Origin: Parcubacteria group bacterium RIFCSPLOWO2_01_FULL_48_18
GTDB lineage: Bacteria; Patescibacteriota; Minisyncoccia; UBA6257; WO2-01-48-18
Assembly: GCA_001824435.1 (NCBI GenBank)
Contig: MHXH01000016.1
Span: 14,970 to 78,969 of the forward strand
Reading direction: 5' to 3'
Length of the DNA stretch: 64,000 nt
This document shows positions 7,008 through 51,862 of the stretch, piece by piece. Both the position numbers and the translations under genes were made by a program. Numbering within the stretch: the stretch's first letter is position 1; each line of letters starts with the position of its first letter. The notes under the pieces are model-generated. The model was not told where the DNA came from and made no database searches. It saw nothing but the letters and a program-made list of their open reading frames with translations.

Positions 7008-9209
7008 ATGAAAAGGAAAATGTCAAAGCTTCTCCCCATTGCATTCTTTACCGTACTAATAACGGTGAGTTTACTGATTCCAGCAGACGCGCACGCTTGG
7101 ATACATGATGAAATCGCCAGCGCATTAGGAGGCGCAGTTCTCGATGTTATGTCTTTCTTCATAGGAATGGTAGCAAGCATTCTGGGTATTTTCGTGTCGA
7201 TAGCCACGATCTTTACCGGCGCGATGCTTAAGATAAACTTCGATGTTTTAAAAAACCCGGTGGCCACGGTCGGATGGGTCGCAACCAGAGATTTTGCCAA
7301 TCTGGGATTCGTACTGGTGCTTCTGATTATCGCCTTCGCGACAATTCTGCGGATCCAAAGCTACGGCATGAAAAGCCTTTTGTGGAAACTTATTATCGCC
7401 GCAGTGCTTGTCAACTTCAGCTTTACCATTGCCGCAGCCTTTATAGACTTCAGCCATATTCTCGCAAAAACTTTCATGAACAGGTCATTACCCCAAGGCC
7501 TATCCGGGCCCATGGACTACGGCACCCATCTTGCCGGAAATCTCAATCCTCAAGCGCCCTACGCTGTCGCGAGCAGCGCATCGGCGCTGGCTAAAACCGC
7601 AAGCTTTACGTCCTTGTTCCTTTCGGTTCTCTTCGGATTCGTATTTGCCATACTCTATACTCTCATTCTCATAGTCGTGATAAGTGCGCTGGGCGTCCTT
7701 TTCGTCGTACGGTTTGTACACCTCACATTTCTACTCGTCCTTGCGCCGCTTGCATGGCTCTTTTGGGCAACTCCAATGTTAAGCCACCTTGCAAAACAAT
7801 GGTGGAACTCGTTTTTACGGTGGGTCTTTTTCGCTCCGGCAGCGCTCTTTTTCATTTGGCTCTCGCTTAAAATTAGCACGCAGGCAGGTGCGCAAAAATG
7901 GTTTGAGGATACCGACGCATCACTTATAAAAGCAGGCGTAGCTACCAAGCTAGATAGTTCTATTCTTACCGGAAACCTCCTGACAAGCCTCGCAAACATG
8001 TTCCTTCTAGGCAGTCTTCTTGTCGGAAGTGTTATCGTGGCGGACAAAATGGGGGTAGACGGAGCGCGCGCAGCAGTTAACGCCGCCACTAAGGTTCCGC
8101 GGGCTACGGCCGAATTTTTGAAACGGCGCGGCGCCCTGCTTAAAAACAAGGCCCTTCAAAAGGCAATGGAAAGCAAGGCGGGTAAAAAAGTGGCGGGCGC
8201 ACTCCAAGCAATCCCGCTTTTCGGAGGCATTGTAACCCCCGCCCTAGCAGATCTTAGGGCCGGGGCCAAAGGAAAAGAAGTAGAGTTCTATCAGGAGAAA
8301 TATGCAAATTATGACCAACAGCAACTCGAGGCTGCCATGCGGCAGACAAAGAATTCTGCAGAAGCCGCTGCCCTGTCGGGTATTGCCGGTAAGAAAGGGT
8401 TTTTGCGCGCTGCCAATACAAACCTTAGTAGGAAGGAGAGGCTGCAATTGGCCGTAGTCGCGGATCAGGCTGGCCTTGCCCCAGATGGAACAAAACACTC
8501 AGACCAGATTGTAAAAGGTGACCCGACTCTAGCGTACAATATAGCCAGACTAGCTGGGAAAAACGATGAAGATAGCATGGCCGAAATGAGCAAATTTATG
8601 AAAGAAAAGATGTCTCCCGAGGATATAGCCAGAATGGACCCTTCGGCAGCCGACTTTGATCCCAAGAAGGACATTGCTGATCCTAAAAATATTGAAAATC
8701 GCCTCAGGCTTCACGTTGCTCTTTTGCTAGACACGGGTAGGCTTGGACGCGTAATCAGCGAGGGTGGGCCAGCGGTTGACTCCATTGAAAAAACTCTAAA
8801 GTGGGCACGGGCTAATCGGGACGAGGTGAAAAAAGAAGACGCCATACTCAAACTACCCCCGGATAAATCCAGAGAGAGAAGTATGGACAGACTGCTGGAC
8901 TATTGGGAACAGTCTCCTGTTACGGCTGGCCGTAAACTGCCGGTCGCTGCAGAAGAAATTAAATATAATGCCGCCGAAACATTCGGCAACGCCGACAACC
9001 AACGCACGGTCAAAATGGTACTAAGCCTAGACATCGGACGGCTCGACGAAATCATAAAAGACCCGAATCCTCTGGTACCCACCAACTTCAAAGACACCCT
9101 ACAGCAGATTAAGAGCAATATAAACCTCCTAACCGACCAAGAAAAGAAACGGATCGGGGGCCACATTAGGTACTGGAACTCTCTTAATTCCGCTAATCAA
9201 ATTACGTAA
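7008..9209 (+). CDS. VirB6/TrbL-like polytopic membrane protein with cytoplasmic C-terminal extension
   Basis: GWVATRDFANLGFVLVLLIIAFATIL, LIIAAVLVNFS, LLVLAPLAW...WWNSFLRWVFFAP motifs; start taken at ATG 7008. Confidence 0.7.
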   Translation: MKRKMSKLLPIAFFTVLITVSLLIPADAHAWIHDEIASALGGAVLDVMSFFIGMVASILGIFVSIATIFTGAMLKINFDVLKNPVATVGWVATRDFANLGFVLVLLIIAFATILRIQSYGMKSLLWKLIIAAVLVNFSFTIAAAFIDFSHILAKTFMNRSLPQGLSGPMDYGTHLAGNLNPQAPYAVASSASALAKTASFTSLFLSVLFGFVFAILYTLILIVVISALGVLFVVRFVHLTFLLVLAPLAWLFWATPMLSHLAKQWWNSFLRWVFFAPAALFFIWLSLKISTQAGAQKWFEDTDASLIKAGVATKLDSSILTGNLLTSLANMFLLGSLLVGSVIVADKMGVDGARAAVNAATKVPRATAEFLKRRGALLKNKALQKAMESKAGKKVAGALQAIPLFGGIVTPALADLRAGAKGKEVEFYQEKYANYDQQQLEAAMRQTKNSAEAAALSGIAGKKGFLRAANTNLSRKERLQLAVVADQAGLAPDGTKHSDQIVKGDPTLAYNIARLAGKNDEDSMAEMSKFMKEKMSPEDIARMDPSAADFDPKKDIADPKNIENRLRLHVALLLDTGRLGRVISEGGPAVDSIEKTLKWARANRDEVKKEDAILKLPPDKSRERSMDRLLDYWEQSPVTAGRKLPVAAEEIKYNAAETFGNADNQRTVKMVLSLDIGRLDEIIKDPNPLVPTNFKDTLQQIKSNINLLTDQEKKRIGGHIRYWNSLNSANQIT

Positions 9210-9220
9210 GCTTTAACCAC

Positions 9221-9571
9221 ATGCTTTCCCGCCAACAAGTAACCCAAAAACTTTCCACGCTCCCTCCTGACATTAGAGAATGGCTTATTTCTCCTGAAGT
9301 TGCTTTTTACATACGGAAGTTGGGGCAGGACCTTGAACTGGTCCGCGTCCAGACCGAACGGATTTCCGAGCTGATTTTAAGCGTCGCAGTCGGCGCAATT
9401 ACAGCCACAGAATGCCTAAACACTCTACAGGAAGATCTGGCCTTGAAACCGGAGACCGCCAGAAGGGTGGCAGAGCGGATTTACACCGAAATATTCAGCC
9501 GCATACAAGGCTCGTTGTTAAAACTCGGGGTTGATATACGAGGACTCGTGCGCCCGCAAGGGCCGTCGTAG
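9221..9571 (+). CDS. Hypothetical helical protein
   Basis: 116 aa ORF in operon. Confidence 0.65.
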   Translation: MLSRQQVTQKLSTLPPDIREWLISPEVAFYIRKLGQDLELVRVQTERISELILSVAVGAITATECLNTLQEDLALKPETARRVAERIYTEIFSRIQGSLLKLGVDIRGLVRPQGPS

Positions 9572-9614
9572 AAATTAACTTTACGCTCGGATCTGCCCTC
9601 AACCTAGCCCCCGG

Positions 9615-9980
9615 GTGCGGGCTGCTCCGGCGTTATTAAATTGCATGGACGCCCCCCCAAACGAAAAACCCAAAGACGAACCTGCGCCGTTCATTATAGG
9701 CGTTGGTTTTGCCGCTCCGGCGGCTCCGGCAACAGGAGAAGACTCTTCTGAAAAAAAACCAGAGGGGATCCCCACGGCCGAACCACAGGATAAATCCTTC
9801 GACGCGGCTACTTCGACTACGCTCAGTACGGGCCAGGATAAACCCCACATGCTTTTTACAACCGGAGCTGAAAAAATTAAGCCGATCTCCGAAAGCAGGC
9901 GGCCGTCAATGGGCCCGGTAGTTCTGGAAAAACAGAAGAAGGAAACGCCGAAAGCGAGAATAGAACTTCCGGAAGAGTAG
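9615..9980 (+). CDS. Low-complexity Pro/Glu/Lys-rich hypothetical protein (possibly a detached tail of the upstream gene)
   Basis: ORF track; contains an in-frame REP-like insert at 9786-9844. Confidence 0.4.
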   Translation: MRAAPALLNCMDAPPNEKPKDEPAPFIIGVGFAAPAAPATGEDSSEKKPEGIPTAEPQDKSFDAATSTTLSTGQDKPHMLFTTGAEKIKPISESRRPSMGPVVLEKQKKETPKARIELPEE

Positions 9981-10032
9981 ACCCTAGACCTTAGGCTTTA
10001 GGCTCTAGGCTTTAGGTTTTAGGTTTTAGACG
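9978..10032. repeat. 7-mer tandem array (left arm)
   Basis: TAGACCC TAGACCT TAGGCTT TAGGCTC TAGGCTT TAGGTTT TAGGTTT TAGACG. Confidence 0.85.
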
Positions 10033-10086
10033 TTGCGTTAGACGCGGAAAAATTAGGATGTAATTTCTAAACCTCTAAAAGCCGAC

Positions 10087-10442
10087 ATGCACACTTATAA
10101 AGACCTTATCGTCTGGCAGAAGTCTATAGAACTGGTTACAAAAATATACCTCTTGACAGAAGGCTTTCCAAAAGAAGAAATCTATGGCCTAACGTCGCAA
10201 ATGAGACGCGCTGCCGTATCCATAGCTTCGAATATTGCTGAAGGCAGGCTACGAGGACATCCAAAAGAATTTAAGCAGTTTTTATTAACTGCTTATGTGG
10301 CTCTGGCGGCGAACTAGAAACACAGATTGAAATCGCCAAACGCCTACCCACCACAAGACGCCTCGATTACACAAGAACAGACGCCCTGCTTAGCGAGGTG
10401 ATGAAAATGTTAAATGCGATGATCTCAAGGACTAGCGCCTAA
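10087..10442 (+). pseudogene. Four-helix-bundle protein (23S rRNA IVP/bAvd-like family), frameshifted
   Basis: YKDLIVWQKS...FPKEEIYGLTSQMRRAAVSIASNIAEG; 2 extra nt near 10297 shift the frame before GSGGELETQIEIAKRL...MLNAMISRTSA* (TAA 10440-10442). Confidence 0.85.
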
Positions 10443-10474
10443 CGCCTAGCGCCTAACGGCCTAGCGCCTAAACC
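10432..10474. repeat. 7-mer tandem array (right arm, inverted relative to 9978-10032)
   Basis: CTAGCGC CTAACGC CTAGCGC CTAACGG c CTAGCGC CTAAACC. Confidence 0.85.
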
Positions 10475-11122
10475 ATGCAGTTTCAAATCCCCCAATTCAT
10501 CGAGACGGAAGATAAAATTGTCGGGCCGTTTACGCTCAAGCAGTTTTTATATTTTGCCGGCGCCGGAGGCATCAGTTTCGTCCTTTACTTCACGCTCAAT
10601 TTTTTCTTCTGGTTTATGATCACATTTTTCCTCGCGCTCGTCGCCGTCGGATTGGCATTTGTCAAGATCAACGGCCTGCCGCTCATCAAAATCCTCATGG
10701 CGGCAGTTGGTTTCATGATGAAGCCGCGGCTCTACGTCTGGCAGAGGCGGCTGGAAGGAAAAACCGTCGAGGTTCCCGAAGACGAGGACGAAGAAACGCC
10801 GGAAAAAGAAAAACCAGCCGAAGACGGGCATCGCCCGGCAATAAGCGGCAGCTTGAGTTCATTGGCCGAAAAGTTGAAAACCGGAAGCTCGTACATTCCA
10901 AAAAGAGAACAACCCATGCCGAGCCGGTTTTCGACGTATACCGCGGCCCCGCCAGCCGCCACCGCTCCGGCCCCAAAAACTGACAACCCACACCAACAGG
11001 CTCCGCAGCCAATCGAAAACCCGACAACACAACCTACGCCGCAACAAAACAACCAGTATGTTGAACTAGAACTGCCCAGCGGAGAAATACAAAAAGCGAA
11101 ACGAGTGGACTATGGTGAATAG
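10475..11122 (+). CDS. PrgI family (VirB3-like) protein
   Basis: MQFQIPQFIETEDKIVGPFTLKQFLY, two TM helices, KPRLYVWQR. Confidence 0.85.
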   Translation: MQFQIPQFIETEDKIVGPFTLKQFLYFAGAGGISFVLYFTLNFFFWFMITFFLALVAVGLAFVKINGLPLIKILMAAVGFMMKPRLYVWQRRLEGKTVEVPEDEDEETPEKEKPAEDGHRPAISGSLSSLAEKLKTGSSYIPKREQPMPSRFSTYTAAPPAATAPAPKTDNPHQQAPQPIENPTTQPTPQQNNQYVELELPSGEIQKAKRVDYGE

Positions 11123-11125
11123 ACT

Positions 11126-11151
11126 AAAGTTGAAAGTTGTAAGTTGAAAGG
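11126..11151. repeat. 7-mer array (left arm)
   Basis: TAAAGTT GAAAGTT GTAAGTT GAAAG. Confidence 0.75.
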
Positions 11152-11222
11152 GGTGGATTACAACGAGTAGATTCAAGTTATACGAAGGAGCTAGTTAACC
11201 ATTGATATGATAAAATAAGTAT

Positions 11223-11606
11223 ATGCCGGTAGAAGACCTTGAGGTGTACAAGAAACTTTGCGAACTCGCGCTAGAAATCCATGGAGCTACATTGTCCTTC
11301 CCGCGATTTGAATTGTACGAACTGGGTTCTCAACTAAGACGCTCCTCGAACTCCGCGCCCGCAAACCTCGCTGAAGGCTTCGGTAATAAACACACTAACA
11401 TCTACTTGGAAAGTATCAGCCGGGCGCAAGGAGAAATAAGAGAAACGATACGTCATCTGCGAATGGCCCATCAGAAACAATATATTGTTAAAGAAAAATT
11501 CGAATATTTTATACATGCGTGCCGCGAAAGCTCAAAGATGCTCTACGGACTTGAACGGGGATTAGTACACTCGAAGGCTTTTAAAAATACTACCTTACAA
11601 CTTTAA
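11223..11606 (+). CDS. Four-helix-bundle protein (23S rRNA IVP/bAvd-like family)
   Basis: EDLEVYKK...FPRFELYELGSQLRRSSNSAPANLAEGFG. Confidence 0.9.
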   Translation: MPVEDLEVYKKLCELALEIHGATLSFPRFELYELGSQLRRSSNSAPANLAEGFGNKHTNIYLESISRAQGEIRETIRHLRMAHQKQYIVKEKFEYFIHACRESSKMLYGLERGLVHSKAFKNTTLQL

Positions 11607-11623
11607 TCTTTCAACTTTAATCT
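11594..11623. repeat. 7-mer array (right arm, inverted)
   Basis: CTTACAA CTTTAAT CTTTCAA CTTTAAT CT. Confidence 0.75.
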
Positions 11624-12280
11624 ATGGTCAACGCGAAACCGGCTACTCAACAAATAGTCGAAATAAAAGAAATTAAGGACGATATCGTATATCTCAAGGG
11701 CGGCGGACTGCGCGCCGTGATTATGGTTTCCGGCGTCAATTTCGACCTGAAATCCGAAGAAGAACAGAATATCCTTCTCTACGGCTATCAAAGTTTCCTT
11801 AATTCGCTTGATTACTCGTTCCAAATCGTTGTTCACTCACGGAAGTTAAACATCGACGGCTACTTGGAAATGCTCCGGCAACGCGAGTTGCAGGAGCAAA
11901 ACGAACTCCTCAAGGCGCAAGTCGCCGAATACGTGGAATTCGTAAGCTCGTTCGTACAGATGAACGCCATCATGTCAAAAACATTTTACGCAGTCGTCCC
12001 GTACGACGTCATCCAGGTAGGGTCAAAAACCATTGCCGGCCTCGGAAGCCTTATGGAAGGAGGATCAAGGGCGCCGGTTGCAACAACAAAGGAAGAAGAC
12101 GAAACCGTAAAAATAACCCAGCTCGAACAGCGAGTCGAACAAGTTCTGGGAGGCATCCGCAGAATGGGACTCCGGGCGGTTCGCCTCAATGCGCAGGAGC
12201 TCATTGAGCTCTACTACAATTTGTATAACCCGGAGGAAAAAGAACGGACGCTCGCAATTGCAAAAGATATGACTACATAG
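11624..12280 (+). CDS. T4SS VirB4/TraC N-terminal-like partner protein
   Basis: ATQQIVEIKEI...VSGVNFDLKSEEEQ...FLNSLDYSFQIVVHSRKLNIDGYL, directly upstream of the VirB4-like ATPase. Confidence 0.75.
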   Translation: MVNAKPATQQIVEIKEIKDDIVYLKGGGLRAVIMVSGVNFDLKSEEEQNILLYGYQSFLNSLDYSFQIVVHSRKLNIDGYLEMLRQRELQEQNELLKAQVAEYVEFVSSFVQMNAIMSKTFYAVVPYDVIQVGSKTIAGLGSLMEGGSRAPVATTKEEDETVKITQLEQRVEQVLGGIRRMGLRAVRLNAQELIELYYNLYNPEEKERTLAIAKDMTT

Positions 12281-12288
12281 TCGTATAC

Positions 12289-12370
12289 AGCTTGTAGCTG
12301 GTAGCCGGTAGCTTCTTAATCGTGGTTTAACTTATTACCAAAAAGCTACAAGCTAAAAAGCTACAAGCTA
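12289..12370. repeat. Empty inverted 7-mer array pair
   Basis: AGCTTGT AGCTGGT AGCCGGT AGCTTCT ... AAAAGCT ACAAGCT AAAAAGCT ACAAGCT. Confidence 0.8.
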
Positions 12371-12373
12371 ATC

Positions 12374-14188
12374 ATGGGTTTCATCAATCCGTTTGGCGCG
12401 TCGTCGCCAAAACAAAAAATCGCTGTTCCTACCGCATACGAGATGGGCGGTAAGGACATCAAGGACATAATTTCTCCGCCGGCGCTTGAAATCGAGTCGA
12501 ACTTCCTCAAGCTCGGCAAGAAATTCGTCAAGAGCTACTTCGTATTCACCTATCCCCGCTTTCTTGTCAGCGGCTGGTTTTCTCCGATCATCAACATGGA
12601 CAAGGCGATGGATATCGCCATTTTCGTCCATCCAATCGAAACCGCAACAGCGCTGAAAAAGCTCCGCAGAAAAACCGCTCAAGTCCAAGCGCAGCTCGCC
12701 GAGCGGGAAGAAAAAGGATACGTATCCGACCCGGCGCTCGAAACCGCCTACCAGGACATCGAATCGCTCCGCCAATCGCTCCAGCAATCAACGGAACGCC
12801 TCTTCAATGCAGGGCTGTACTTCACCCTCTACGGAGACACGCTTGAAGAAATAAACGCCGTGGAGTCAAAGATCGTTTCAATCCTCGAGGGCCAGATCGT
12901 GTACACCAAGCCGTGTCTCTTCCAACAGTATGAAGGATTCGTATCAACGCTACCGCTCGGACACGACAAAATACTCATACACACCCCGCTTAATTCCGGA
13001 CCCATTTCTTCGTTCTTCCCGTTCGTTTCTTCTGACCTTACGTCAGACAAGGGTATTCTCTACGGCATCAACCGCCACAACAACAGCCTCGTCATATTTG
13101 ACAGGTTTTCAATGGAAAACGCGAACCAGGTCCTGTTCGCCAAGTCCGGTTCCGGGAAATCCTATACCACTAAGCTCGAAATCCTGCGCTATCTTATGCT
13201 CGGCACCGACATCCTCATCATCGATCCGGAAAACGAGTATCAGAATCTTTCGGACACCGTAGGCGGCGCGTTCTTCAAAATATCCCTGACATCCGATTAC
13301 CACATCAACCCATTCGACATCCCGAAAATTCCGAAAGGAGAAGACCCGGGAGACGTCTTGCGTTCGCATATCGTCAATCTCTCCGGCCTCCTCAAACTAA
13401 TGCTCGGTGGCGTAACGCCCGAGGAAGACGCCGTGTTAGATCGGGCTATCACCGAAACCTACGCCTCACGCGACATCACGCCTGACGCCGACTTTTCGGG
13501 GAAAACGCCGCCGCTCATGCAAGATCTCCAAACCGTGCTTGAAAACATGGAAGGCGCAAAAGACGTTGCCGCAAAATTGGAAAAATATACCAAAGGAACG
13601 TACAGCACGTTCATCAACCAACCGACGAACATCGACGTCAAAAACCGGCTTATCGTATTCAGCTTGCGCGACCTGGAGGACCAGTTGCGGCCGATGGCGA
13701 TGTACATCGTGCTCAATTTCATCTGGGGACTTATCCGCGCAGAGCTTAAACGCCGCCTCCTCATTATCGACGAGGCGTGGTGGATGATGAAAAGCGAAGA
13801 CAGCGCGTCATTTCTCTTCGGCCTGGCCAAGCGCGCGCGGAAATATTACATGGGGGTAAGCACCATCACGCAAGACGTGGAGGACTTTCTAAAGTCACCG
13901 TACGGAAAACCGATCATCACCAACTCGGCAATTCAGATCCTCCTCAAACAGGCGCCTTCTTCTATCGACGCGGTGGCCAAAACATTTAACCTCACCGAAG
14001 CAGAAAAACAACTATTGCTTGAAAGCGGAGTGGGGGAAGGATTGTTTTTTGCCGGACTCAAGCACGCAGCCATCAAGGTCATCGCTTCCTACACCGAAGA
14101 TCAAATCGTCACCACCAACCCGCAACAAATCATGGAGCAACAAAAGCTGTCGGAGCAAATAGAAAAAATGAAGGAAAAAACAAACTAA
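12374..14188 (+). CDS. virB4: VirB4-like type IV secretion ATPase
   Basis: Walker A AKSGSGKS, IIDPENEY, Walker B LIIDEAW, ARKYYMGVSTITQ. Confidence 0.9.
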   Translation: MGFINPFGASSPKQKIAVPTAYEMGGKDIKDIISPPALEIESNFLKLGKKFVKSYFVFTYPRFLVSGWFSPIINMDKAMDIAIFVHPIETATALKKLRRKTAQVQAQLAEREEKGYVSDPALETAYQDIESLRQSLQQSTERLFNAGLYFTLYGDTLEEINAVESKIVSILEGQIVYTKPCLFQQYEGFVSTLPLGHDKILIHTPLNSGPISSFFPFVSSDLTSDKGILYGINRHNNSLVIFDRFSMENANQVLFAKSGSGKSYTTKLEILRYLMLGTDILIIDPENEYQNLSDTVGGAFFKISLTSDYHINPFDIPKIPKGEDPGDVLRSHIVNLSGLLKLMLGGVTPEEDAVLDRAITETYASRDITPDADFSGKTPPLMQDLQTVLENMEGAKDVAAKLEKYTKGTYSTFINQPTNIDVKNRLIVFSLRDLEDQLRPMAMYIVLNFIWGLIRAELKRRLLIIDEAWWMMKSEDSASFLFGLAKRARKYYMGVSTITQDVEDFLKSPYGKPIITNSAIQILLKQAPSSIDAVAKTFNLTEAEKQLLLESGVGEGLFFAGLKHAAIKVIASYTEDQIVTTNPQQIMEQQKLSEQIEKMKEKTN

Positions 14189-15944: not shown

Positions 15945-17042
15945 ATGAAAAAAGTTATTGTTATATTCATCTTAGTACTCATGCTCGCTGCCGCTGTCGG
16001 CGCCATGATTATATTGAGTAAGCGATCGGCGCAGGTCATTACGCAAGAGCGCGCCGTGGAAGAACAGAAAAAAACCGAAGAGCAGAAAAAGCAGGATCCA
16101 CTCAAACGACTTTCCGGCCAGCCGGCACTCGGTTTTTGGTTCTCGCAGGACACGCTATATTACCTCAACGGCGCCGGACAGATTTATTCCGTTAACATCC
16201 AGAACGGCGAGGAAAAGCAAGTCTCTTCCTACGCGATAGAAAACGTGCGAGCCATCACGCCCTCTGCGAAAGGGGATGGAGCGCTCATAACCTTTTCCGA
16301 CCGCGGAGAAAATCTGGTAAGCATGTATCGCGTCGCGGAAAATTCCTGGACGCCGCTCGACAAGAATATACGGTCTGCCGCATGGTCTCCTGACGGCCAA
16401 TGGCTGGCGCAATTACGGGAAACGTTCGGCGGTGTGCTCGTCCTTGAGCTTGTCAAGCTCTCCGGCGGAGAAAGAACCGAGCTCGCCCGCCTATCCATGC
16501 GCGACGCGCGCCTTACCTGGATCGGCGGACAACAACTCATTGTCTCGTCTCCTCCTTCGAAAGATTTTCCGGCCCCTGCGCTCACAATCAACGTCCTAAC
16601 AAAGACCGTCTCGCCGCTCGCGCTTGAAAAACCGGGGCTTTCATTCGCATGGTCAGCGTCAGGTAAACAAGCTCTCGCGTTCTGGGTCGATGACAACGGC
16701 AAAAATCAAACTGCGCTTGTCAATGATTCGGGAGTCGTCCTCAAAAATTTCCAGACGCCACTCCTACCGCACAAATGCGCGTTCAGCGGAGAACAACAGC
16801 TGTACTGCGGCGTGCCGGCAAATGTAAACCTTGCCACCGTGGCCGATTTACCCGATGCATACCTTATGCAAAAGGTTCGTCTTGTGGATCACGTAGCACT
16901 CGTCGACGCACAAACGTCACGTCTCAAGATTATCTTCTCTCGTCAAGAACCCTCGCTCGATATTTACAAACCTCACGTACACGACAACAAACTTTTCTTC
17001 ATCAACCGCTACGATGGCGCCATCTACTCGTTGGAGTTGTAA
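15945..17042 (+). CDS. Membrane-anchored beta-propeller (TolB-like) protein
   Basis: N-terminal TM helix, AWSPDG repeat, C-terminal LFFINRYDGAIYSL. Confidence 0.75.
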   Translation: MKKVIVIFILVLMLAAAVGAMIILSKRSAQVITQERAVEEQKKTEEQKKQDPLKRLSGQPALGFWFSQDTLYYLNGAGQIYSVNIQNGEEKQVSSYAIENVRAITPSAKGDGALITFSDRGENLVSMYRVAENSWTPLDKNIRSAAWSPDGQWLAQLRETFGGVLVLELVKLSGGERTELARLSMRDARLTWIGGQQLIVSSPPSKDFPAPALTINVLTKTVSPLALEKPGLSFAWSASGKQALAFWVDDNGKNQTALVNDSGVVLKNFQTPLLPHKCAFSGEQQLYCGVPANVNLATVADLPDAYLMQKVRLVDHVALVDAQTSRLKIIFSRQEPSLDIYKPHVHDNKLFFINRYDGAIYSLEL

Positions 17043-17127
17043 GTTGCAAGTCGACAGCGGAAAGTTAAAAACCGGACGCAGGAACCGGTTTTTTAATCTT
17101 TCAGCTCACAACTTTAATCTTTAATCC
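17036..17127. repeat. Empty inverted 7-mer array pair enclosing a bidirectional terminator
   Basis: GTTGTAA GTTGCAA GTCGACA GCGGAAA GTT ... AAAAACCGG/CCGGTTTTT hairpin ... TTTAATC TTTCAGC TCACAAC TTTAATC TTTAATC; same unit family as 11126 and 11594. Confidence 0.7.
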
Positions 17128-24593: not shown

Positions 24594-24670
24594 GAGTGTT
24601 TAGCGCTTAGCGTTCAGCGTTTATCCGCCAGCCGGCGGACTAATCGCCATACTCCATACCCTAAACCCTA
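24594..24670. repeat. Empty inverted 7-mer array pair with central REP-like palindrome
   Basis: GTGTTTA GCGCTTA GCGTTCA GCGTTTA TCCGCCAGCCGGCGGA ... CCATACT CCATACC CTAAACC CTAAA. Confidence 0.7.
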
Positions 24671-25936
24671 AAATGCGAGTATTTTCTCAAATTGGACCGA
24701 GTCTTTGTACGGGCCGATCACCGCTAAGTTCAGCCCCGCGTTCGTGAAGATTTCCCTTGAAACATTCCGTATGTCCTCGGCGGTCACCCCATTTATTTTC
24801 TCTAAAATTTGATCGATAGTCAAAATTTCCCTGCGGACGACCTCTTGACTGCCGTAGAAAGAAGCTAGTTCATCCGAAGTTTCAAGGCTTATCGCCATGC
24901 TGCCGGCAATCTTTCTTTTGGCGTTGATGAGTTCTTCTGCGTCAACGGACCCGTCCCTTAATCGCGCGAATTCTTCAAGGATTGCGCGGACCACATTGGT
25001 GATCTTATCGAGCGCGACCCCGGCCGAAACAGAAAGATAGCCGTGATCGCTATAGAGATCGTTTGAGGTATGAATGTAGTACGCCGCGCCCATTTGTTCC
25101 CGGACGCGCTGGAAGAGTCGTGAGCTCATCCCCCCGCCTAGCAGATTGGCAATGAGCGTAAGCGTGTTTCGCCGTTCGTCAAAAGCGTCAAAGGCCCTTA
25201 CTCCTAATACAAGATGAGCTTGGTCGGTTTCCTTGTGCCGTGTTAGCGTCGCAGGCCCTTTTTGTGTTTCGATCGTGCGGGGCATCGATCCCTTTTCGTC
25301 GGCAGCGATGCGGTCGAACGCTTCGGTTGTCATTCGCCGCACGGCCGTTTCGTCGGTCCCGCCCGCAACGATTAATACCGTAGCGTTGGGAAGGTAGTGT
25401 CTCTTCCGATAGGACAGAAAGTCATTCCTCTGAAGAGATAAGACTATTTCTTTCTTGCCGATAACGTCCCAGCCAGCCGGTTGGTCGCCGTAGAGGAGGG
25501 TGGTAAAGAGTTCGTGGATCTGTTGCATTGGCGCGTCTTCGTACATGTTGATTTCTTCAATAATTACCCCGCGTTCTTTGTCAATCTCTTCTTCTCGAAG
25601 AAGCGAACGAAGATAAATGTCGGAGAGTACATCGAAGATTTTTCCTGCATCTTCGTTGCGCGCCTTGGCATAGAAGCCCGTGTATTCATGGCTGGTGAAG
25701 GCATTGTAGTGGGCGCCGAGCGCGTCAAGTTCGGAGGCGACGTCGATCGGCCTCGGGCGCCGCTCGGTTCCCTTAAAACACATGTGCTCGAGAAAATGAG
25801 AGAGGCCGTTGACCTGCTTTGATTCATATTTTGATCCCGCTTCAACCAAAAACAACACCGTGGTGGTGAGGCTTCCTTTTTGCGGAACGGTGACGAGCCG
25901 TAGCCCGTTCTTTAAAGTTGTTTTAGAAAAAGACAC
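24668..25936 (-). CDS. M16 family zinc peptidase
   Basis: HFLEHMCFKGT (HXXEH), NAFTSHEYT, LGGGMSSRLF. Confidence 0.93.
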   Translation of the reverse strand: MSFSKTTLKNGLRLVTVPQKGSLTTTVLFLVEAGSKYESKQVNGLSHFLEHMCFKGTERRPRPIDVASELDALGAHYNAFTSHEYTGFYAKARNEDAGKIFDVLSDIYLRSLLREEEIDKERGVIIEEINMYEDAPMQQIHELFTTLLYGDQPAGWDVIGKKEIVLSLQRNDFLSYRKRHYLPNATVLIVAGGTDETAVRRMTTEAFDRIAADEKGSMPRTIETQKGPATLTRHKETDQAHLVLGVRAFDAFDERRNTLTLIANLLGGGMSSRLFQRVREQMGAAYYIHTSNDLYSDHGYLSVSAGVALDKITNVVRAILEEFARLRDGSVDAEELINAKRKIAGSMAISLETSDELASFYGSQEVVRREILTIDQILEKINGVTAEDIRNVSREIFTNAGLNLAVIGPYKDSVQFEKILAF

Positions 25937-29276: not shown

Positions 29277-29375
29277 TTGGAATTTGGAATCTTGAATTTG
29301 GAGCTCGGAAGCCCTAACCCTTGAACCCCGAATTCAGATTCTAATTCTAAATTCTAAATTCTAAATTCCAGATTC
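29277..29375. repeat. Empty inverted 7-mer array pair
   Basis: TTGGAAT TTGGAAT CTTGAAT TTGGAGC ... ATTCTAA ATTCTAA ATTCTAA ATTCCAG ATTC. Confidence 0.85.
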
Positions 29376-29379
29376 TTTT

Positions 29380-29849: not shown

Positions 29850-29940
29850 TAGCTTTTTAGCTTCTTAGCCTTTTAGGGAAGCTTGTCGATATGGCGTTCT
29901 CAACAGCTCTAATAAGCTACAAGCTAGTAAGCCACCAGCC
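29850..29940. repeat. Empty inverted 7/8-mer array pair
   Basis: AGCTTTTT AGCTTCTT AGCCTTTT AG ... TAATAAGC TACAAGC TAGTAAGC CACCAGC; same family as 12289-12370. Confidence 0.75.
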
Positions 29941-34761: not shown

Positions 34762-36963
34762 TTAGCTCTGTGGTTGAGGATTAATTGGCATATCGACCAC
34801 GAAGGTGGTTCCTTTGCCGATCCCTTCGCTCTTTGCCGTGAGCGTTCCTCTATGTTCCTCGATAATCTTTTTCACGACGTACAGACCGAGGCCTGTTCCG
34901 CTGGAAGCAACCCGTATTGCTTCGTCGGTGCGATAGAATTTCTGGAATAACTTGCCGACATCTTCCGGTTTAATACCGATGCCGGTATCTGAAACAATGC
35001 AGCGCCAGCGTCCTGTTGTTTTCTCCAGCGAAATCGTTACCGACCCCCCAGGTGTATACTTGATTGCATTGTCGATCAGGTTATACAGGGCCTCGTGGAG
35101 GTGTTTACGATCGAAGCGAGCTTGAAGAGAATCTTGATCTTGGCGATGCTCTAGCTGGAGTTTTTTTGCTTCTGCCGGTTGGCGTAGTTCTTCCACAATT
35201 TTTTTCACGAATGCGTATGCGTCAGCCTCTTCTAATTTTAGCTTCAGCCCCCCGCCTTCGATATATGCCGTGTTGAGCAGGTCGTTAATGAGCGCCGCCA
35301 GGCGATTGGCGGATTCGTAGATACTGGTTAAGAATGAAGCCCTGGTTTTTTCATCTACTTCATTTTTGATGATCATCGACATCATGCCCCTGATGACCGT
35401 TGTGGGGGTGCGTAGTTGGTGGGAGGCCATGTTGAGAAAATCCGTTTTGAGCTTGCTTAGCTCCTCGAGGTGCGTATTCGCCTTTTCCAGTTCCTTATTG
35501 CGTTGATCTAATGCGGCAGTGGCGTCCTTCACTTTTTTTTCAAGGTCTTTGTTGACGCTTTGAAGGTATGCGGAGAGCGCCTTGGTTTCGTCGTAGAGAA
35601 GCGCGTTCTCGAGCGCGACGGAAACTTGGCGGGAGAACAGCTCGAGCCGCTCGAGATCATGATCGGTGAAGTCCCCAACCATTTTAGGGCCGACTGTCGC
35701 AGCTCCGCCGAGCTCGTCCTTGACGACGAACGGAATAAATAGGCGTACGTTTTGATCCTCGAAGCTTCTCTTGAGCTGTTCGACGTCCGATTTCAGCCCC
35801 CCGCCATACAGGTTTATGAACGAGAAGAGGTCTTCCAGGAAAAGGATTTTTTTGTTGTGCTTGAGCGATCGGATGATAATATTGTCCGCGTAATTGAAAA
35901 TGGGGGCTCCCGGATCGTAACCGAGAATTTTAGATGCGTCGATGTTGTTCGTTTCGCCGCCCCTGATCAACATGGCTACCCGCTCAACGCCGAGTATTTT
36001 TTTGAGCACGAATGTTCCCGTTTCAACGAGCTGGGTGAGATCTAGAATGTATGCCAATCTTTTAATGTCTTCGTCAGCATCTTCTTCCGTGTGCTCGCCA
36101 GGCCGCAACCTCGATGTATAGAAATACGAGAAAACTCTGATGCAGAGGGCGAATGTGGTGATGCCAACGGCTGCGAGGACCATGTATTTGAGGAATTCAT
36201 TCGTGGTAATAAAACCTGGCGCTGCCCAGAACGCCGTTGCGGCAATCAGGCTCGCTGTTGCCGCAGCAGATCCGTATACGAAGACGCGGCGGAGAAACTC
36301 TTCTACGTTAAGGAACCGTTTAGTGATAACCGCATAGACGCCAAGCGGTACAGCTGGGGCAAGTAATATGTACGGATAAAGAAAAACCGGCATGCGATAT
36401 AGAAAAAGGAAAAAGGCGGCGGCACCTATGATATAAAGTATGAGCGCCAGCTGGAGATATTTTAATCTAAGGCGAAGAAAACCTTGTGCGTATTTGAGGC
36501 GCCCTCGTATTTGGTAGAGGAGGAAAAAGAGCAACACAAGGCAAAGGGCGTTCAATGCATACAGGCCGGTCGTCCGACCTGGGAAGAAATCAACTTGTTC
36601 CGGCGCTGACGAAATGATCAGCGGCGTAAAGTTAATGATGAAGAAAAACGCAAATGCTCCGTATGAAGCCATGACCAGGATTGGTCTTTTCTGTCCCTGC
36701 CCCGTGATCCGGTGGACCAGATGTACGTATGTGGAAACGGCAATAATGACCCCGACGACGGAGAGCCGCAACCATAGGAGCGCTTCATGTTCTGAAATTG
36801 CGCGGAACCACAGAAAAGATGCGCCGGCCCATATGGTAATGCCCGCTGCCGATGCAGCCGAGAAGAACTTGTTTTTATTGAGGCCGCCGCGCCAGAGAGC
36901 ATAGATTGTCGATGACAAACCAGAAATGAAGTTTACGGCGGCAAGAAAACCAAATACGCCCAT
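34762..36963 (-). CDS. Membrane sensor histidine kinase (multi-TM, GAF, HisKA, HATPase)
   Basis: ASHQLRTP, NLIDNAIKYT, DTGIGI, GTGLGL. Confidence 0.93.
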   Translation of the reverse strand: MGVFGFLAAVNFISGLSSTIYALWRGGLNKNKFFSAASAAGITIWAGASFLWFRAISEHEALLWLRLSVVGVIIAVSTYVHLVHRITGQGQKRPILVMASYGAFAFFFIINFTPLIISSAPEQVDFFPGRTTGLYALNALCLVLLFFLLYQIRGRLKYAQGFLRLRLKYLQLALILYIIGAAAFFLFLYRMPVFLYPYILLAPAVPLGVYAVITKRFLNVEEFLRRVFVYGSAAATASLIAATAFWAAPGFITTNEFLKYMVLAAVGITTFALCIRVFSYFYTSRLRPGEHTEEDADEDIKRLAYILDLTQLVETGTFVLKKILGVERVAMLIRGGETNNIDASKILGYDPGAPIFNYADNIIIRSLKHNKKILFLEDLFSFINLYGGGLKSDVEQLKRSFEDQNVRLFIPFVVKDELGGAATVGPKMVGDFTDHDLERLELFSRQVSVALENALLYDETKALSAYLQSVNKDLEKKVKDATAALDQRNKELEKANTHLEELSKLKTDFLNMASHQLRTPTTVIRGMMSMIIKNEVDEKTRASFLTSIYESANRLAALINDLLNTAYIEGGGLKLKLEEADAYAFVKKIVEELRQPAEAKKLQLEHRQDQDSLQARFDRKHLHEALYNLIDNAIKYTPGGSVTISLEKTTGRWRCIVSDTGIGIKPEDVGKLFQKFYRTDEAIRVASSGTGLGLYVVKKIIEEHRGTLTAKSEGIGKGTTFVVDMPINPQPQS

Positions 36964-49326: not shown

Positions 49327-51765
49327 ATGAAGATCAAACGGGTTTTAAAATTCGGCGGCACATCGTTGGGATCTCCAGATGCCATCAGAAGAGCCAGCGC
49401 CATTATCAGGGAAGCGGCGCAGCGGGGGGCAATAGCCGTTGTTGTTTCTGCGTTTTCCGGCGTTACTGATCAGCTTTTGTGCTGCGCCAGATGGGCAGAG
49501 AAACAGAATCCTGAATTGAGGCAAGAACTGCGTCGGCTACGCATGCGTCATTTTGAAACGGCTCGAAAACTTTTTCCGGCAAAGCTTCGCGAGGAAGCTA
49601 GGGCGCCCTTGGAGCAATTATTTAAAGAATTGGAGGGGCGTCTTATGCGCATTGAAAAAGGAAAGGCTGCGTCGGTTCAAGACCTCGATGCTGTCGCAGG
49701 CATTGGAGAACGCCTATCCGCCCCCATCATTGCCGCTTACCTAAACAGTTTTGACACCAAACGTCATCCGTTCAGGTCATACACTATAGACGCCAGGGGT
49801 TTAATTAAGACCGACAGCTGCTTCGGAAGGGCCAGTGTTGATTTTGTTAAGACCGACCGCAATATTAAAGAGTTTTTCCATGGCCGTCCCGGAGGTAAAA
49901 ATATGGTTCCCGTGCTAACCGGCTTTATCGGGTCAACCGATGGGGGCGAAACCACAACGCTCGGTCGAGGCGGGTCTGATTACACTGCCGCAATCGTCGC
50001 TGCGGCCATCGATGCGAAACTCGTCGAAATATGGACCGATGTTGATGGGGTAATGAGTGCCGACCCCAATCTTGTTACGCACGCATATCTCTTGCCGCAA
50101 CTGACCTATTCCGAAGCGATTGAAATGGCATATTTCGGCGCTAAGGTTATCCATCCGGCAACCATGCTTCCGGCAATTAAAAAGAAAATTCCTATTCTCA
50201 TCAAAAATACATTTAACCCATCCTCGTCAGGCACTCTTATTTCCCATGGCGCATCCAGCGATAACAATCAAACCGTAAAAGGCATTACCGCAATAGATGA
50301 TGTTGCCATTATAAATATAGGTGGCGTGAGTTTGGCGGGTATACCCGGTTCAGCCGCCAGAGTTTTTAAGGCGACTGCCGCCGCGGGCGCCAATGTTGTT
50401 TTAATATCGCAGGCGTCGTCAGAGCATACAATCTGCATTGCGATAAAAAGAGAGAGCCTTGCCCCGGCCCTCTATTCTCTCCGAAAAGAATTTAGGGAAG
50501 CGATAAAACAAAAACAGGTAACGCTTCACACAATCAAGGATCAATCCATTGTTGCCGTCGTGGGAGACGGCATGCGGGGAACGCCTGGCGTTGCCGGCAA
50601 GTTATTTAACGCCCTTGCTGAACACGGGATAAACATTTCCGCGATTGCCCAAGGGGGCTCTGAACGAAATATTTCTCTTGTAGTAAAATCGTCCGACAAA
50701 GCAGCTGCGCTTAACGTCATCCATAATGCGTTTTTACGGGTTCCGCCAAAACACATCTTTCTAGCAGGCACCGGCAATATAGGGGGCAAGCTTCTAGAGC
50801 AGATGAAGGCCCATCCTCATCTCAGGGTATGCGGTCTTATTAACACCGATTTTATGCTTTCTGACTCGAGGGGCATTCAACTTGACCGGTGGAGCATTTT
50901 ATTGGGTCGCGGCCAGCAAGCTAACGTACAAACATGGCTCTCGCGGGCACGAACCCTCAATCTGTCGAATAAAATTTTTGTTGATTGCACTGCCAGCAAA
51001 AAAATCGCTCGGCAGTACTGCAACATTGCCCGGGCCGGTTTTCATATTGTAACGCCGAACAAGATATTCAATGTGTTACCATTTGACGAATACCAAAAGC
51101 TGCGCCGCATTTTGGCGCAAAACAACAAGCGCTTCCTTTATGAAACAACGGTTGGCGCGGCTATGCCGATCATCTCTACGCTAAGAGATCTTGTTGCTAG
51201 CGGGGATGGCATTACCAGGATCGAGGGTATTTTTTCCGGAACGCTCAGTTATATCCTAAGCGCTTACGACGGAAAAAGACCGTTTAGCTCGGTGGTGCTG
51301 GAAGCGAAGGAAAAAGGCTATACCGAGCCCGATCCTAGAACTGACCTTTCAGGAGAAGATGTGGGAAGAAAACTGCTTATTCTGGCCCGCGAAATAGGCC
51401 TGCCGCTTGAAATGGAAGACATAAAAGTCCAAAGTTTGGTGCCTCCCCCCCTGCGAAAAGTAAAATCGGCAGACTCGTTTTTGGCGCGTTTGAAAGACTA
51501 CGACAAACAGTTTGAAAAACTATGCAAACGCGCTAGAGTAAGAGGACGGGCGCTGCGATACGTGGCAACGCTTCAAGGAAGGCGGGCGTCGGTATCGCTT
51601 AAAGAAATTCCATTGACCGATCCTTTGTCCTCTACTCGTGGCGCTGATAATATCTTTGTTTTTTATACCAAGCGCTACAACGAACGGCCGTTGGTGGTTC
51701 AAGGGCCCGGAGCCGGCGCCGCAGTCACCGCTGGAGGGGTGTTGACGGACATTCTTAAAATCTAG
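49327..51765 (+). CDS. thrA: Bifunctional aspartate kinase / homoserine dehydrogenase
   Basis: VLKFGGTS, TLGRGGSDY, two ACT domains, GTGNIG, YETTVGA, GYTEPDPR, GPGAG. Confidence 0.95.
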   Translation: MKIKRVLKFGGTSLGSPDAIRRASAIIREAAQRGAIAVVVSAFSGVTDQLLCCARWAEKQNPELRQELRRLRMRHFETARKLFPAKLREEARAPLEQLFKELEGRLMRIEKGKAASVQDLDAVAGIGERLSAPIIAAYLNSFDTKRHPFRSYTIDARGLIKTDSCFGRASVDFVKTDRNIKEFFHGRPGGKNMVPVLTGFIGSTDGGETTTLGRGGSDYTAAIVAAAIDAKLVEIWTDVDGVMSADPNLVTHAYLLPQLTYSEAIEMAYFGAKVIHPATMLPAIKKKIPILIKNTFNPSSSGTLISHGASSDNNQTVKGITAIDDVAIINIGGVSLAGIPGSAARVFKATAAAGANVVLISQASSEHTICIAIKRESLAPALYSLRKEFREAIKQKQVTLHTIKDQSIVAVVGDGMRGTPGVAGKLFNALAEHGINISAIAQGGSERNISLVVKSSDKAAALNVIHNAFLRVPPKHIFLAGTGNIGGKLLEQMKAHPHLRVCGLINTDFMLSDSRGIQLDRWSILLGRGQQANVQTWLSRARTLNLSNKIFVDCTASKKIARQYCNIARAGFHIVTPNKIFNVLPFDEYQKLRRILAQNNKRFLYETTVGAAMPIISTLRDLVASGDGITRIEGIFSGTLSYILSAYDGKRPFSSVVLEAKEKGYTEPDPRTDLSGEDVGRKLLILAREIGLPLEMEDIKVQSLVPPPLRKVKSADSFLARLKDYDKQFEKLCKRARVRGRALRYVATLQGRRASVSLKEIPLTDPLSSTRGADNIFVFYTKRYNERPLVVQGPGAGAAVTAGGVLTDILKI

Positions 51766-51862
51766 AATATGGAATTTGAAATTTGAAGACTATTTGAAAT
51801 AAAAAAAGTGGCGCTCGCAAACAGCGTGTAGCGCCACAGATATGACAGTGCCGTCGTGATAG

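What the first reader, a model, noticed from the sequence alone, without database searches (positions are those of the whole stretch)
9978..11623. Four-helix-bundle genes enclosed by inverted 7-mer tandem arrays inside the T4SS operon
Seen: two divergent IVP/bAvd-like genes interrupt the operon on either side of prgI. Each is bracketed by its own heptamer family in inverted orientation (TAGGYTT-type vs CTARCGC; RAAAGTT vs CTTTMAW). The arrays start at or next to the upstream stop codon and end just before the next ATG. A period of 7 places TAG/TAA stops in all three frames, and the arms could pair to loop the gene out in RNA or ssDNA. One copy is frameshifted, suggesting turnover. Established: the family includes the nucleic-acid-binding DGR accessory protein Avd and 23S rRNA intervening-sequence proteins, but there is no RT or rRNA here. 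Inference: an undescribed mobile cassette or RNA-processing/regulatory system targeting gene junctions in surface-structure operons.
Basis: partly seen in the sequence, partly recalled or inferred. Interest (0 to 1): 0.8.

Follow-up and report, generated by a model that had tools for sequence, protein, structure and literature searches.

The report
Heptamer-armed four-helix-bundle mobile cassettes
Two small genes of the 'ribosomal-RNA intervening-sequence protein' family sit in this operon, each between mirror-image runs of a 7-base repeat; they are likely the gene-carrying form of a mobile hairpin element whose gene-less copies are scattered through the genome, and their protein is predicted (untested) to recognise the long-unexplained 7-base repeats of bacteria.

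Summary
Two PF05635 genes (one frameshifted, both on +) flank prgI, each inside its own inverted 7-mer arms; a gene-less arm pair follows at 12289-12371. The genome has 163 period-7 arrays against 9-34 at other periods, about 58 hairpins, in-frame arrays in enzymes and heptamer hairpins inside its 23S rRNA gene, yet only three IVP genes. In same-order relatives these junctions are mostly bare, sometimes gene-less hairpins, rarely filled; the four inserts upstream of prgI are not one clade (AU p=0.0002), so they arose separately. The repeat unit tracks protein clade, and 24 of 30 Nostocales IVP loci are bracketed by 7-mer arrays, including the known GGGGA(C/T)T repeat. Not supported: restriction to surface-structure operons (most named neighbours are housekeeping genes) and selection on the sense-RNA stem (no G·U excess). 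No RT, no HUH transposase, no RNA run. Best reading: a selfish cassette whose Avd-like pentamer likely binds its arms and aids copying; binding and mobility are untested. The scan found this design before on other DNA (64 findings); my ten literature searches found only the rRNA form.

The parts
9978..10031 (+). Cassette 1 left arm, about 7 units of TTAGGCT type; begins with the stop codon of the upstream ORF
   Evidence: a 40 of 48 in-register match is the arm of a gene-less hairpin at G000 C3:4076
10087..10442 (+). IVP (PF05635) gene 1, frameshifted near 10298-10303; its stop codon lies inside the right arm
10432..10472 (+). Cassette 1 right arm (CTAGCGC / CTAACGC units), ends 2 nt before the prgI ATG
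10475..11122 (+). prgI-family gene (host operon)
   Evidence: PF12666 E 4e-11
11119..11151 (+). Cassette 2 left arm (AAAGTTG type); its first four bases hold the prgI stop codon
11223..11606 (+). Intact IVP gene 2, 127 aa four-helix bundle; its stop codon lies inside the right arm
11593..11625 (+). Cassette 2 right arm (CAACTTT / TAATCTT); its last two bases are the AT of the next ATG
11624..12280 (+). VirB4 N-terminal-like / TrsD-like gene (host operon)
   Evidence: weak NCBIfam hits below cut-off; matched in 60 of 61 genomes
12289..12371 (+). Gene-less inverted heptamer hairpin (TAGCTTG / CAAGCTA family) filling the junction before the VirB4 ATPase
   Evidence: same-family hairpins at ribosomal-protein and other junctions
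12374..14188 (+). VirB4/TraG-type ATPase (host operon)
   Evidence: PF19044 E 1e-30
17033..17126 (.). Gene-less sibling of cassette 2 (AAGTTG-type arms) at a convergent junction
   Evidence: also noted in earlier finding e1-796538
24598..24672 (-). Gene-less heptamer hairpin with a nested GC-rich palindrome
29277..29376 (-). Gene-less hairpin of the genome's commonest class (YTRGRAT), filling a stop-to-start gap

Best explanation
Each gene plus its two inverted 7-mer arms is an optional cassette that is likely a selfish mobile element: its four-helix-bundle protein is predicted to form an Avd-like pentamer that likely binds its own repeat arms and would help host enzymes copy arm-bounded DNA to new sites. 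Shown: the arm-gene-arm anatomy; bare, gene-less and filled states at the same junctions; separate origins of inserts at one junction; truncated and gene-less derivatives; purifying selection on the protein; unit tracking protein clade. Inferred: the arms pair in the transcript, so the upstream stop and downstream start stay about 10 nt apart (in rRNA the stem would be cut out by RNase III, as shown in vitro for Coxiella), which would make insertions nearly harmless. Genes decay by frameshift or deletion and leave hairpins that are themselves copied and, as single arms, survive in frame in protein loops. The copying chemistry is unknown; the arms behave like arrays of a degenerate recognition motif, not like a selected RNA duplex.
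For: Junction states: IVP upstream of prgI in 4 of 52 scorable loci, between prgI and the next gene in 3 of 55, before virB4 in 1 of 57, the window included; 11 of 55 and 5 of 57 are gene-less hairpins of any kind. The four inserts upstream of prgI are rejected as one clade (AU p 0.0002; 43 of 79 rows used). The def/fmt junction is gene-less in G000 and filled in G043 and G040. Decay series: frameshift here, pseudogene in L009, 48-aa internally deleted gene with both arms intact in G030. Gene-less copies are copied: in-register sibling of arm 1 at a junction whose genes lie on the other strand, near-identical loops at C17:44254 and C19:21410, one 156-nt hairpin twice, 100% identical, in the 23S rRNA gene. 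dN/dS 0.08-0.28 in the 15 unsaturated of 25 pairs. Unit tracks protein: rho -0.30, 1 of 2000 permutations (20 Nostocales genes); rho -0.11, 18 of 1000 (46 of 78 order-level genes). Folded stop-to-start distance 30 nt or less in 35 of 48 filled sites, median 9.5 nt against 466 linear. Fold TM 0.86 to pentameric 2GSC, 0.66 to Avd; Avd binds an RNA stem-loop with all five protomers through flipped-out bases (10.1101/2023.10.23.563531, passages).
Against: No mobilising enzyme found: no RVT_1 in G000, Y1_Tnp in 2 of 5 array-rich genomes and not in G000; IVP shows only Q37, E51, E74 invariant and no catalytic motif that I recognise. Abundant repeat families lack a same-unit IVP in the same assembly: YTRGRAT in G000 (65 matches; its three IVP genes carry other units), G030 (22 matches, only a truncated gene), Nostoc G061 (894 CCCCART x4 matches, none of its 5 IVP loci armed with that unit). 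Co-variation is shallow and partly co-inheritance (two nearest pairs are 99-100% identical); a k-mer Mantel test over all pairs was not significant (rho 0.04). No target-site duplication was demonstrated and no excised form of this locus was seen.
Confidence: 0.55

Rival explanations
1. The arrays come from an IVP-independent 7-base slippage process (the long heptanucleotide repeats of Mrazek 2007); IVP genes are passengers that were once captured between such arms and move by ordinary recombination between repeats.
For: Repeat families flourish without a same-unit IVP; 34 of 178 arrays in G000 lie inside reading frames; another cargo (GxxExxY) sits at the same junction in L016; slippage proposal as summarised in PMC4692102 and PMC4679880 (passages).
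Against: Does not explain why IVP genes are bracketed in inverted orientation in two distant groups, why both arms share one unit (15 of 17 Nostocales genes), or the genome-level association: 20 of 42 against 2 of 18 relatives, 7 of 60 against 1 of 91 cyanobacteria.
Confidence: 0.18
2. A host regulatory system: the IVP ring binds heptamer hairpins at operon junctions to tune translation or decay of downstream cistrons, and its own arms give autoregulation.
For: 48 of 58 hairpins are at co-directional junctions, many in ribosomal-protein operons; purifying selection; Nostoc heptamers affect recF/recO expression through an unidentified partner (10.1101/2022.06.06.494920, abstract).
Against: Patchy presence (43 of 61 genomes), non-conserved sites and units, pseudogenes, either orientation to transcription, arrays inside enzyme loops and rRNA.
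Confidence: 0.14
3. An mRNA-level intervening sequence: the arms exist to be cut by RNase III, releasing the IVP RNA and splitting the operon transcript, as in 23S rRNA.
For: Same design and heptameric repeats in the Coxiella IVS, cut by RNase III in vitro (PMC4990558, passages); RNase III in 5 of 5 genomes tested; heptamer hairpins in this genome's own 23S gene.
Against: No G·U over A·C excess on the sense strand (227:194, 56:74, 42:61); cassette 1 has a recurring mismatch per unit; cutting would not explain spread.
Confidence: 0.13

Closest known systems
ORF-bearing intervening sequences (IVS) of 23S rRNA with S23p/IVP (Coxiella burnetii, Leptospira; PMC4990558; in CPR rRNA genes 10.1101/2024.02.27.582315)
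   Same: Same protein family, complementary termini, tandem heptamers in the 5' arm, sporadic distribution, ORF decay; this genome's 23S gene carries gene-less heptamer hairpins.
   Different: These cassettes lie at mRNA stop-start junctions, both arms are heptamer arrays, and dozens of gene-less copies are dispersed; RNase III cutting is untested here.
Heptamer repeats of Nostoc (STRR, GGGGA(C/T)T), Xanthomonas (GGGAATC) and Beggiatoaceae (TAACTGA) (PMC4692102, PMC4679880, PMC2670836)
   Same: Period 7, G-rich strand after stops and C-rich strand before starts (44 against 11 such placements among 78 matches), inverted pairs, no functional class of neighbour.
   Different: My term searches in PMC4692102 and PMC4679880 found no mention of four-helix or intervening-sequence genes; here the repeats are the arms of IVP cassettes.
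Avd of diversity-generating retroelements (4DWL, 8UB7)
   Same: Fold (TM 0.62-0.66); nucleic-acid-binding pentamer as the model.
   Different: No RT found in the genome, below the bAvd cut-off, 12% identity.
MITEs / REP-RAYT and Rickettsia palindromic elements (recalled, not read here)
   Same: Gene-carrying and gene-less forms with inverted ends; in-frame survivors in proteins.
   Different: No transposase in the cassette or found in the genome; the ends are tandem arrays; no target duplication shown.

Membership tests
23S_rRNA_IVP / four-helix-bundle protein (PF05635, TIGR02436) | Profile score above the curated cut-off | tested here: met
   94.8 bits against 33.8; 87 against 24
23S_rRNA_IVP / four-helix-bundle protein (PF05635, TIGR02436) | Four-helix bundle like XCC0516 | tested here: met
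   pLDDT 96.6, four long helices, TM 0.86 and rmsd 0.9 to 2GSC
23S_rRNA_IVP / four-helix-bundle protein (PF05635, TIGR02436) | Homopentamer | not tested
   Inferred from 2GSC and 2RLD (5 chains each); no complex model was obtained
ORF-bearing rRNA intervening sequence | Located inside an rRNA gene | tested here: not met
   Window cassettes lie between protein genes; gene-less relatives do lie in the 23S gene
ORF-bearing rRNA intervening sequence | Complementary termini enclosing an S23p ORF, heptamers in the 5' arm | tested here: met
   PMC4990558 passages
ORF-bearing rRNA intervening sequence | Excision by RNase III | not testable with these tools
   No RNA holder listed; RNase III gene present
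DGR with Avd | Reverse transcriptase | tested here: not met
   No PF00078 match in G000, 96% complete
DGR with Avd | bAvd profile above cut-off | tested here: not met
   19.7 and 30 bits against 40
DGR with Avd | Template and variable repeats | not tested
   No long direct repeat in 9000-12600; not searched genome-wide
MITE / REP-RAYT | Multi-copy gene-less elements with inverted ends | tested here: met
   58 hairpins with copied families
MITE / REP-RAYT | Cognate transposase | tested here: not met
   None in the cassette; Y1_Tnp not found in G000; DDE families not searched
MITE / REP-RAYT | Target-site duplication | tested here: inconclusive
   Relatives too distant for a base-level empty site (same order only)
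Bacterial long heptanucleotide repeats (STRR type) | Period-7 excess, G-rich strand after stops and C-rich strand before starts | tested here: met

The most novel reading that the evidence does not exclude
IVP/S23p proteins are the missing partner of bacterial heptamer repeats: a transposase-free family of mobile elements in which a non-catalytic Avd-like pentamer reads a 7-base code, each clade its own unit, and seeds the STRR, GGGAATC and TAACTGA-type arrays, the gene-junction hairpins, in-frame loop inserts and rRNA intervening sequences alike.
Probability: 0.35. Interest if true: 0.9.

Novelty: new variant of a known kind. Interest (0 to 1): 0.72.

Why it matters
It joins two old loose ends: a protein family with solved pentamer structures but no function, and the unexplained excess of 7-base repeats in bacteria. 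The pairing of each protein clade with its own unit gives a direct binding test, and culturable Nostocales carry several different pairs per genome. If the protein promotes copying, this is a mobile element without a transposase or RT of its own; if it only binds, it is a candidate sequence-specific reader of repeats already shown to affect gene expression in Nostoc.

Tried and rejected
RNA evidence: no RNA holder listed. Joints in DNA contigs that skip 402-427 nt have sides under 30 nt and other letters between; I read them as gene-less hairpins of other organisms, not excision of this locus. Assembly error for the frameshift: rejected. G·U bias and in-register mirroring of unit variants: not found; the loose stem score separated poorly from shuffles (null maximum 30 or more in 60 of 78), so one search repeated it more strictly. 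Whole-range k-mer Mantel test not significant, though pairs above 55% identity share arm k-mers (0.33 against 0.15; control flank 0.14) (that script stopped early in its last table). Array density in 53 T4SS loci without a cassette: 11 of 30 IVP-positive against 2 of 18 IVP-negative loci, p 0.09. 'Never at convergent junctions' (0 of 150) is partly a threshold effect: 17033-17126 is such a case. Copy number (mode 4-5) fits a five-subunit ring but is threshold-limited and Nostoc arrays are far longer, so I give it no weight. Monophyly of the two prgI-downstream inserts was not rejected (p 0.10), that of the two window genes only marginally (p 0.04). The careful tree did not finish; the quick tree was used. 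Promoter and terminator scan uninformative. No complex model was obtained. Mrazek 2007 was not held and is cited second-hand. G000 genes were called with my own hexamer script, so start sites are approximate.

Full report
Observation. The window is G000:C16:14970-78969 of a 1.21-Mb, 96% complete assembly. Two PF05635 genes lie on + either side of prgI, upstream of a VirB4-N-like gene and a VirB4/TraG ATPase. Gene 2 is intact; gene 1 is frameshifted near 10298-10303, and contigs of four runs agree with the window there. Each gene is enclosed by inverted period-7 arms. In cassette 2 the terminal ATAG...CTAT supplies both the prgI stop and the first two bases of the next ATG. A gene-less pair fills the next junction, 12289-12371.

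Genome context. Period-7 arrays number 163 against 9-34 at other periods and 4-11 in Markov simulations, but only three IVP genes are found; the third, on C11, has arms of period about 8. With a looser score there are 178 arrays; 83 have a pairing partner within 130 nt (null 18 of 534), giving 58 distinct hairpins: 48 at co-directional junctions, 6 divergent, none convergent, 2 inside genes, 2 at contig ends. The convergent sibling at 17033-17126 fell below that threshold. I sent 34 of the 54 fetched neighbours of these hairpins to NCBIfam (those 54 cover 29 of the 48 hairpins): named hits include pilB/pilC/pilT but also rplF/rpsH, rplE/rplX, rplP/rpsC, rpoA/rpsD/rpsK, map/adk, def/fmt, gnd/zwf, mraZ/rsmH, grpE, greA, mreB, hisS and ftsA. 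34 of 178 arrays are internal to reading frames; in LeuRS three of them form a 39-residue insert between two adjacent residues of the Thermus enzyme. The 23S rRNA gene carries several heptamer hairpins, one of them twice at 100% identity over 156 nt; listed contig pieces bridge three of the four junctions of the two copies, and other organisms' rRNA has 13-14 nt in place of 183 at one of the sites (three of the four runs may be the source). The left arm of cassette 1 matches, 40 of 48 in register and with variants at the same units, a gene-less hairpin at the pilB/pilC junction on C3, whose genes lie on the opposite strand.

Filled and empty sites. The gene after prgI was matched in 60 of 61 genomes, all relatives being only same-order; I fetched 59 loci. 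IVP lies upstream of prgI in 4 of 52 scorable loci, after prgI in 3 of 55 (one a pseudogene) and before virB4 in 1 of 57, counting the window. After prgI 22 of 55 gaps are 40 nt or less, 11 hairpins, 3 arrays, 15 other, 1 fused; before virB4 44 of 57 are short, 6 fused, 5 hairpins, 1 array (not all hairpins are heptameric). The four upstream inserts fall in four parts of the tree and are rejected as one clade (p 0.0002). PF05635 was found in 43 of 61 genomes. From 70 fetched stretches, chosen for good scores and length, plus the operon loci, 79 IVP proteins were recovered (one locus enters twice): period-7 arrays lie upstream in 52, downstream in 47, both in 38; no other period exceeds 6 for both. 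Of 120 neighbours scanned, those with a Pfam name are mostly housekeeping pairs (transketolase halves, atpB/atpE, infB/rbfA, def/fmt twice, gatC/gatA twice, gap/rpiB twice, nusG/rplK) with a minority of pilus genes; about half had no hit, and these may include pilins. G030 holds a cassette reduced to 48 codons with both arms intact. Unsaturated dN/dS is 0.08-0.28.

Repeat and protein. The unit tracks protein identity weakly in the order (rho -0.11) and clearly in five Nostocales genomes (rho -0.30; 0 of 35 same-genome pairs share a unit). Those genomes were chosen for carrying the recalled STRR1 motif, so their background is high; even so, 24 of 30 IVP loci have arrays on both sides against 0 of 30 distal control windows, and 3 of 121 loci picked by the repeat alone have an IVP gene within 700 nt. 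Genome-level: YTRGRAT x3 in 20 of 42 IVP-positive and 2 of 18 IVP-negative relatives; CCCCART x4 in 7 of 60 and 1 of 91 cyanobacterial genomes, one of the 7 being the chosen centre. Against a strict cognate model, the commonest unit in G000, G030 and Nostoc G061 has no same-unit intact IVP in the assembly.

RNA or DNA level. After folding, upstream stop and downstream start are within 30 nt in 35 of 48 filled sites, which fits hidden insertion and preserved coupling. But three tallies show no G·U excess on the sense strand, both arms have the same Y-T-R-G-R-A-T profile, and variants are not mirrored in register (13 hairpins, 691 of 2000 shuffles as good). The arms therefore look like arrays of a degenerate motif kept in inverted orientation. 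No RT, no Y1 transposase and one RNase III were found in G000. The model of gene 2 is a four-helix bundle closest to pentameric XCC0516, then BT_0352, then Avd; Q37, E51 and E74 are invariant in 77 sequences.

Mechanism. I favour a selfish cassette (0.55). Shown: anatomy, optional presence, separate gains, decay series, copied gene-less forms, selection on the protein, unit-clade tracking. Inferred: pentamer, binding to the arms (by analogy with Avd, whose five protomers hold flipped-out bases of an RNA stem), a role in copying, and harmlessness through stem formation. Rivals: IVP-independent slippage with passenger genes (0.18), host regulation (0.14), RNase III processing (0.13).

Literature. 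Seen as passages: PMC4990558 (Coxiella IVS with heptameric repeats, RNase III cleavage in vitro, ORF decay), PMC10053308, PMC2670836, 10.1101/2024.02.27.582315 (IVP scattered over CPR rRNA insertion sites), 10.1101/2023.10.23.563531 (80), PMC4692102, PMC4679880. Abstract and outline only: 10.1101/2022.06.06.494920 (109). Mrazek 2007 is second-hand. No supplements were read; the repeat-neighbour lists of PMC4692102 (S4 File) could bear on the novelty claim. Ten searches found no paper describing heptamer-armed IVP cassettes outside rRNA or tying IVP to STRR; most subscription journals are not covered. The scan's own notes record this design in at least 61 other genomes and the STRR link in several; these are leads, not support.

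Verdict. Real, not specific to this operon, and a new variant of the rRNA intervening sequence with an unknown mode of spread. Interest 0.72.

Noticed in passing
G000 C17 about 60100-67200 (L324:3100-10200): The 23S rRNA gene carries several heptamer-armed hairpin inserts, one 156-nt element twice at 100% identity, plus other ORF-bearing inserts that I did not examine.
   Followed up: partly
L038 (G027:C1), three junctions of the prgI-virB4 operon: A near-identical hairpin of about 110 nt with TTAA ends and 8-10-nt units sits at three successive junctions; related ACGAAT/ATTCGT hairpins occur in L003, L008 and L054.
   Followed up: partly
L016:3630-4040: A GxxExxY (TIGR04256) gene occupies the same prgI-downstream junction: a second kind of cargo.
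   Followed up: partly
L132 (G030:C1 about 35100-35400): Internally deleted IVP cassette with intact arms; the right arm encodes the N-terminus of the next, prepilin-like ORF (label from recall).
   Followed up: partly
G000 C18:47957-51556 (L308); G030 L136, L138, L139: LeuRS carries seven in-frame heptamer arrays; RNase HII and other G030 enzymes carry inverted array pairs around 100-200 nt of coding sequence.
   Followed up: partly
window 24624-24640; G000 C13:15219, C23:79669, C24:48996: A short GC-rich palindrome (TCCGCC-n4-GGCGGA type) is nested in the loops of several heptamer hairpins.
   Followed up: no
L064, L066, L069, L071, L093, L095: IVP domains fused to long C-terminal extensions (257-429 aa) with only an upstream arm next to the IVP domain.
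   Followed up: no
L080, L082, L085, L086, L087, L061: One IVP clade and the G000 C11 copy have arms of period 8-9 instead of 7.
   Followed up: partly
L005, L006, L015, L017, L035, L059: The VirB4-N-like gene and the ATPase gene are fused in 6 of 57 loci and separate in the rest.
   Followed up: no
window 29850-29876, 51756-51787, 58399-58433: Further single arrays; the last is in frame in uvrA.
   Followed up: partly
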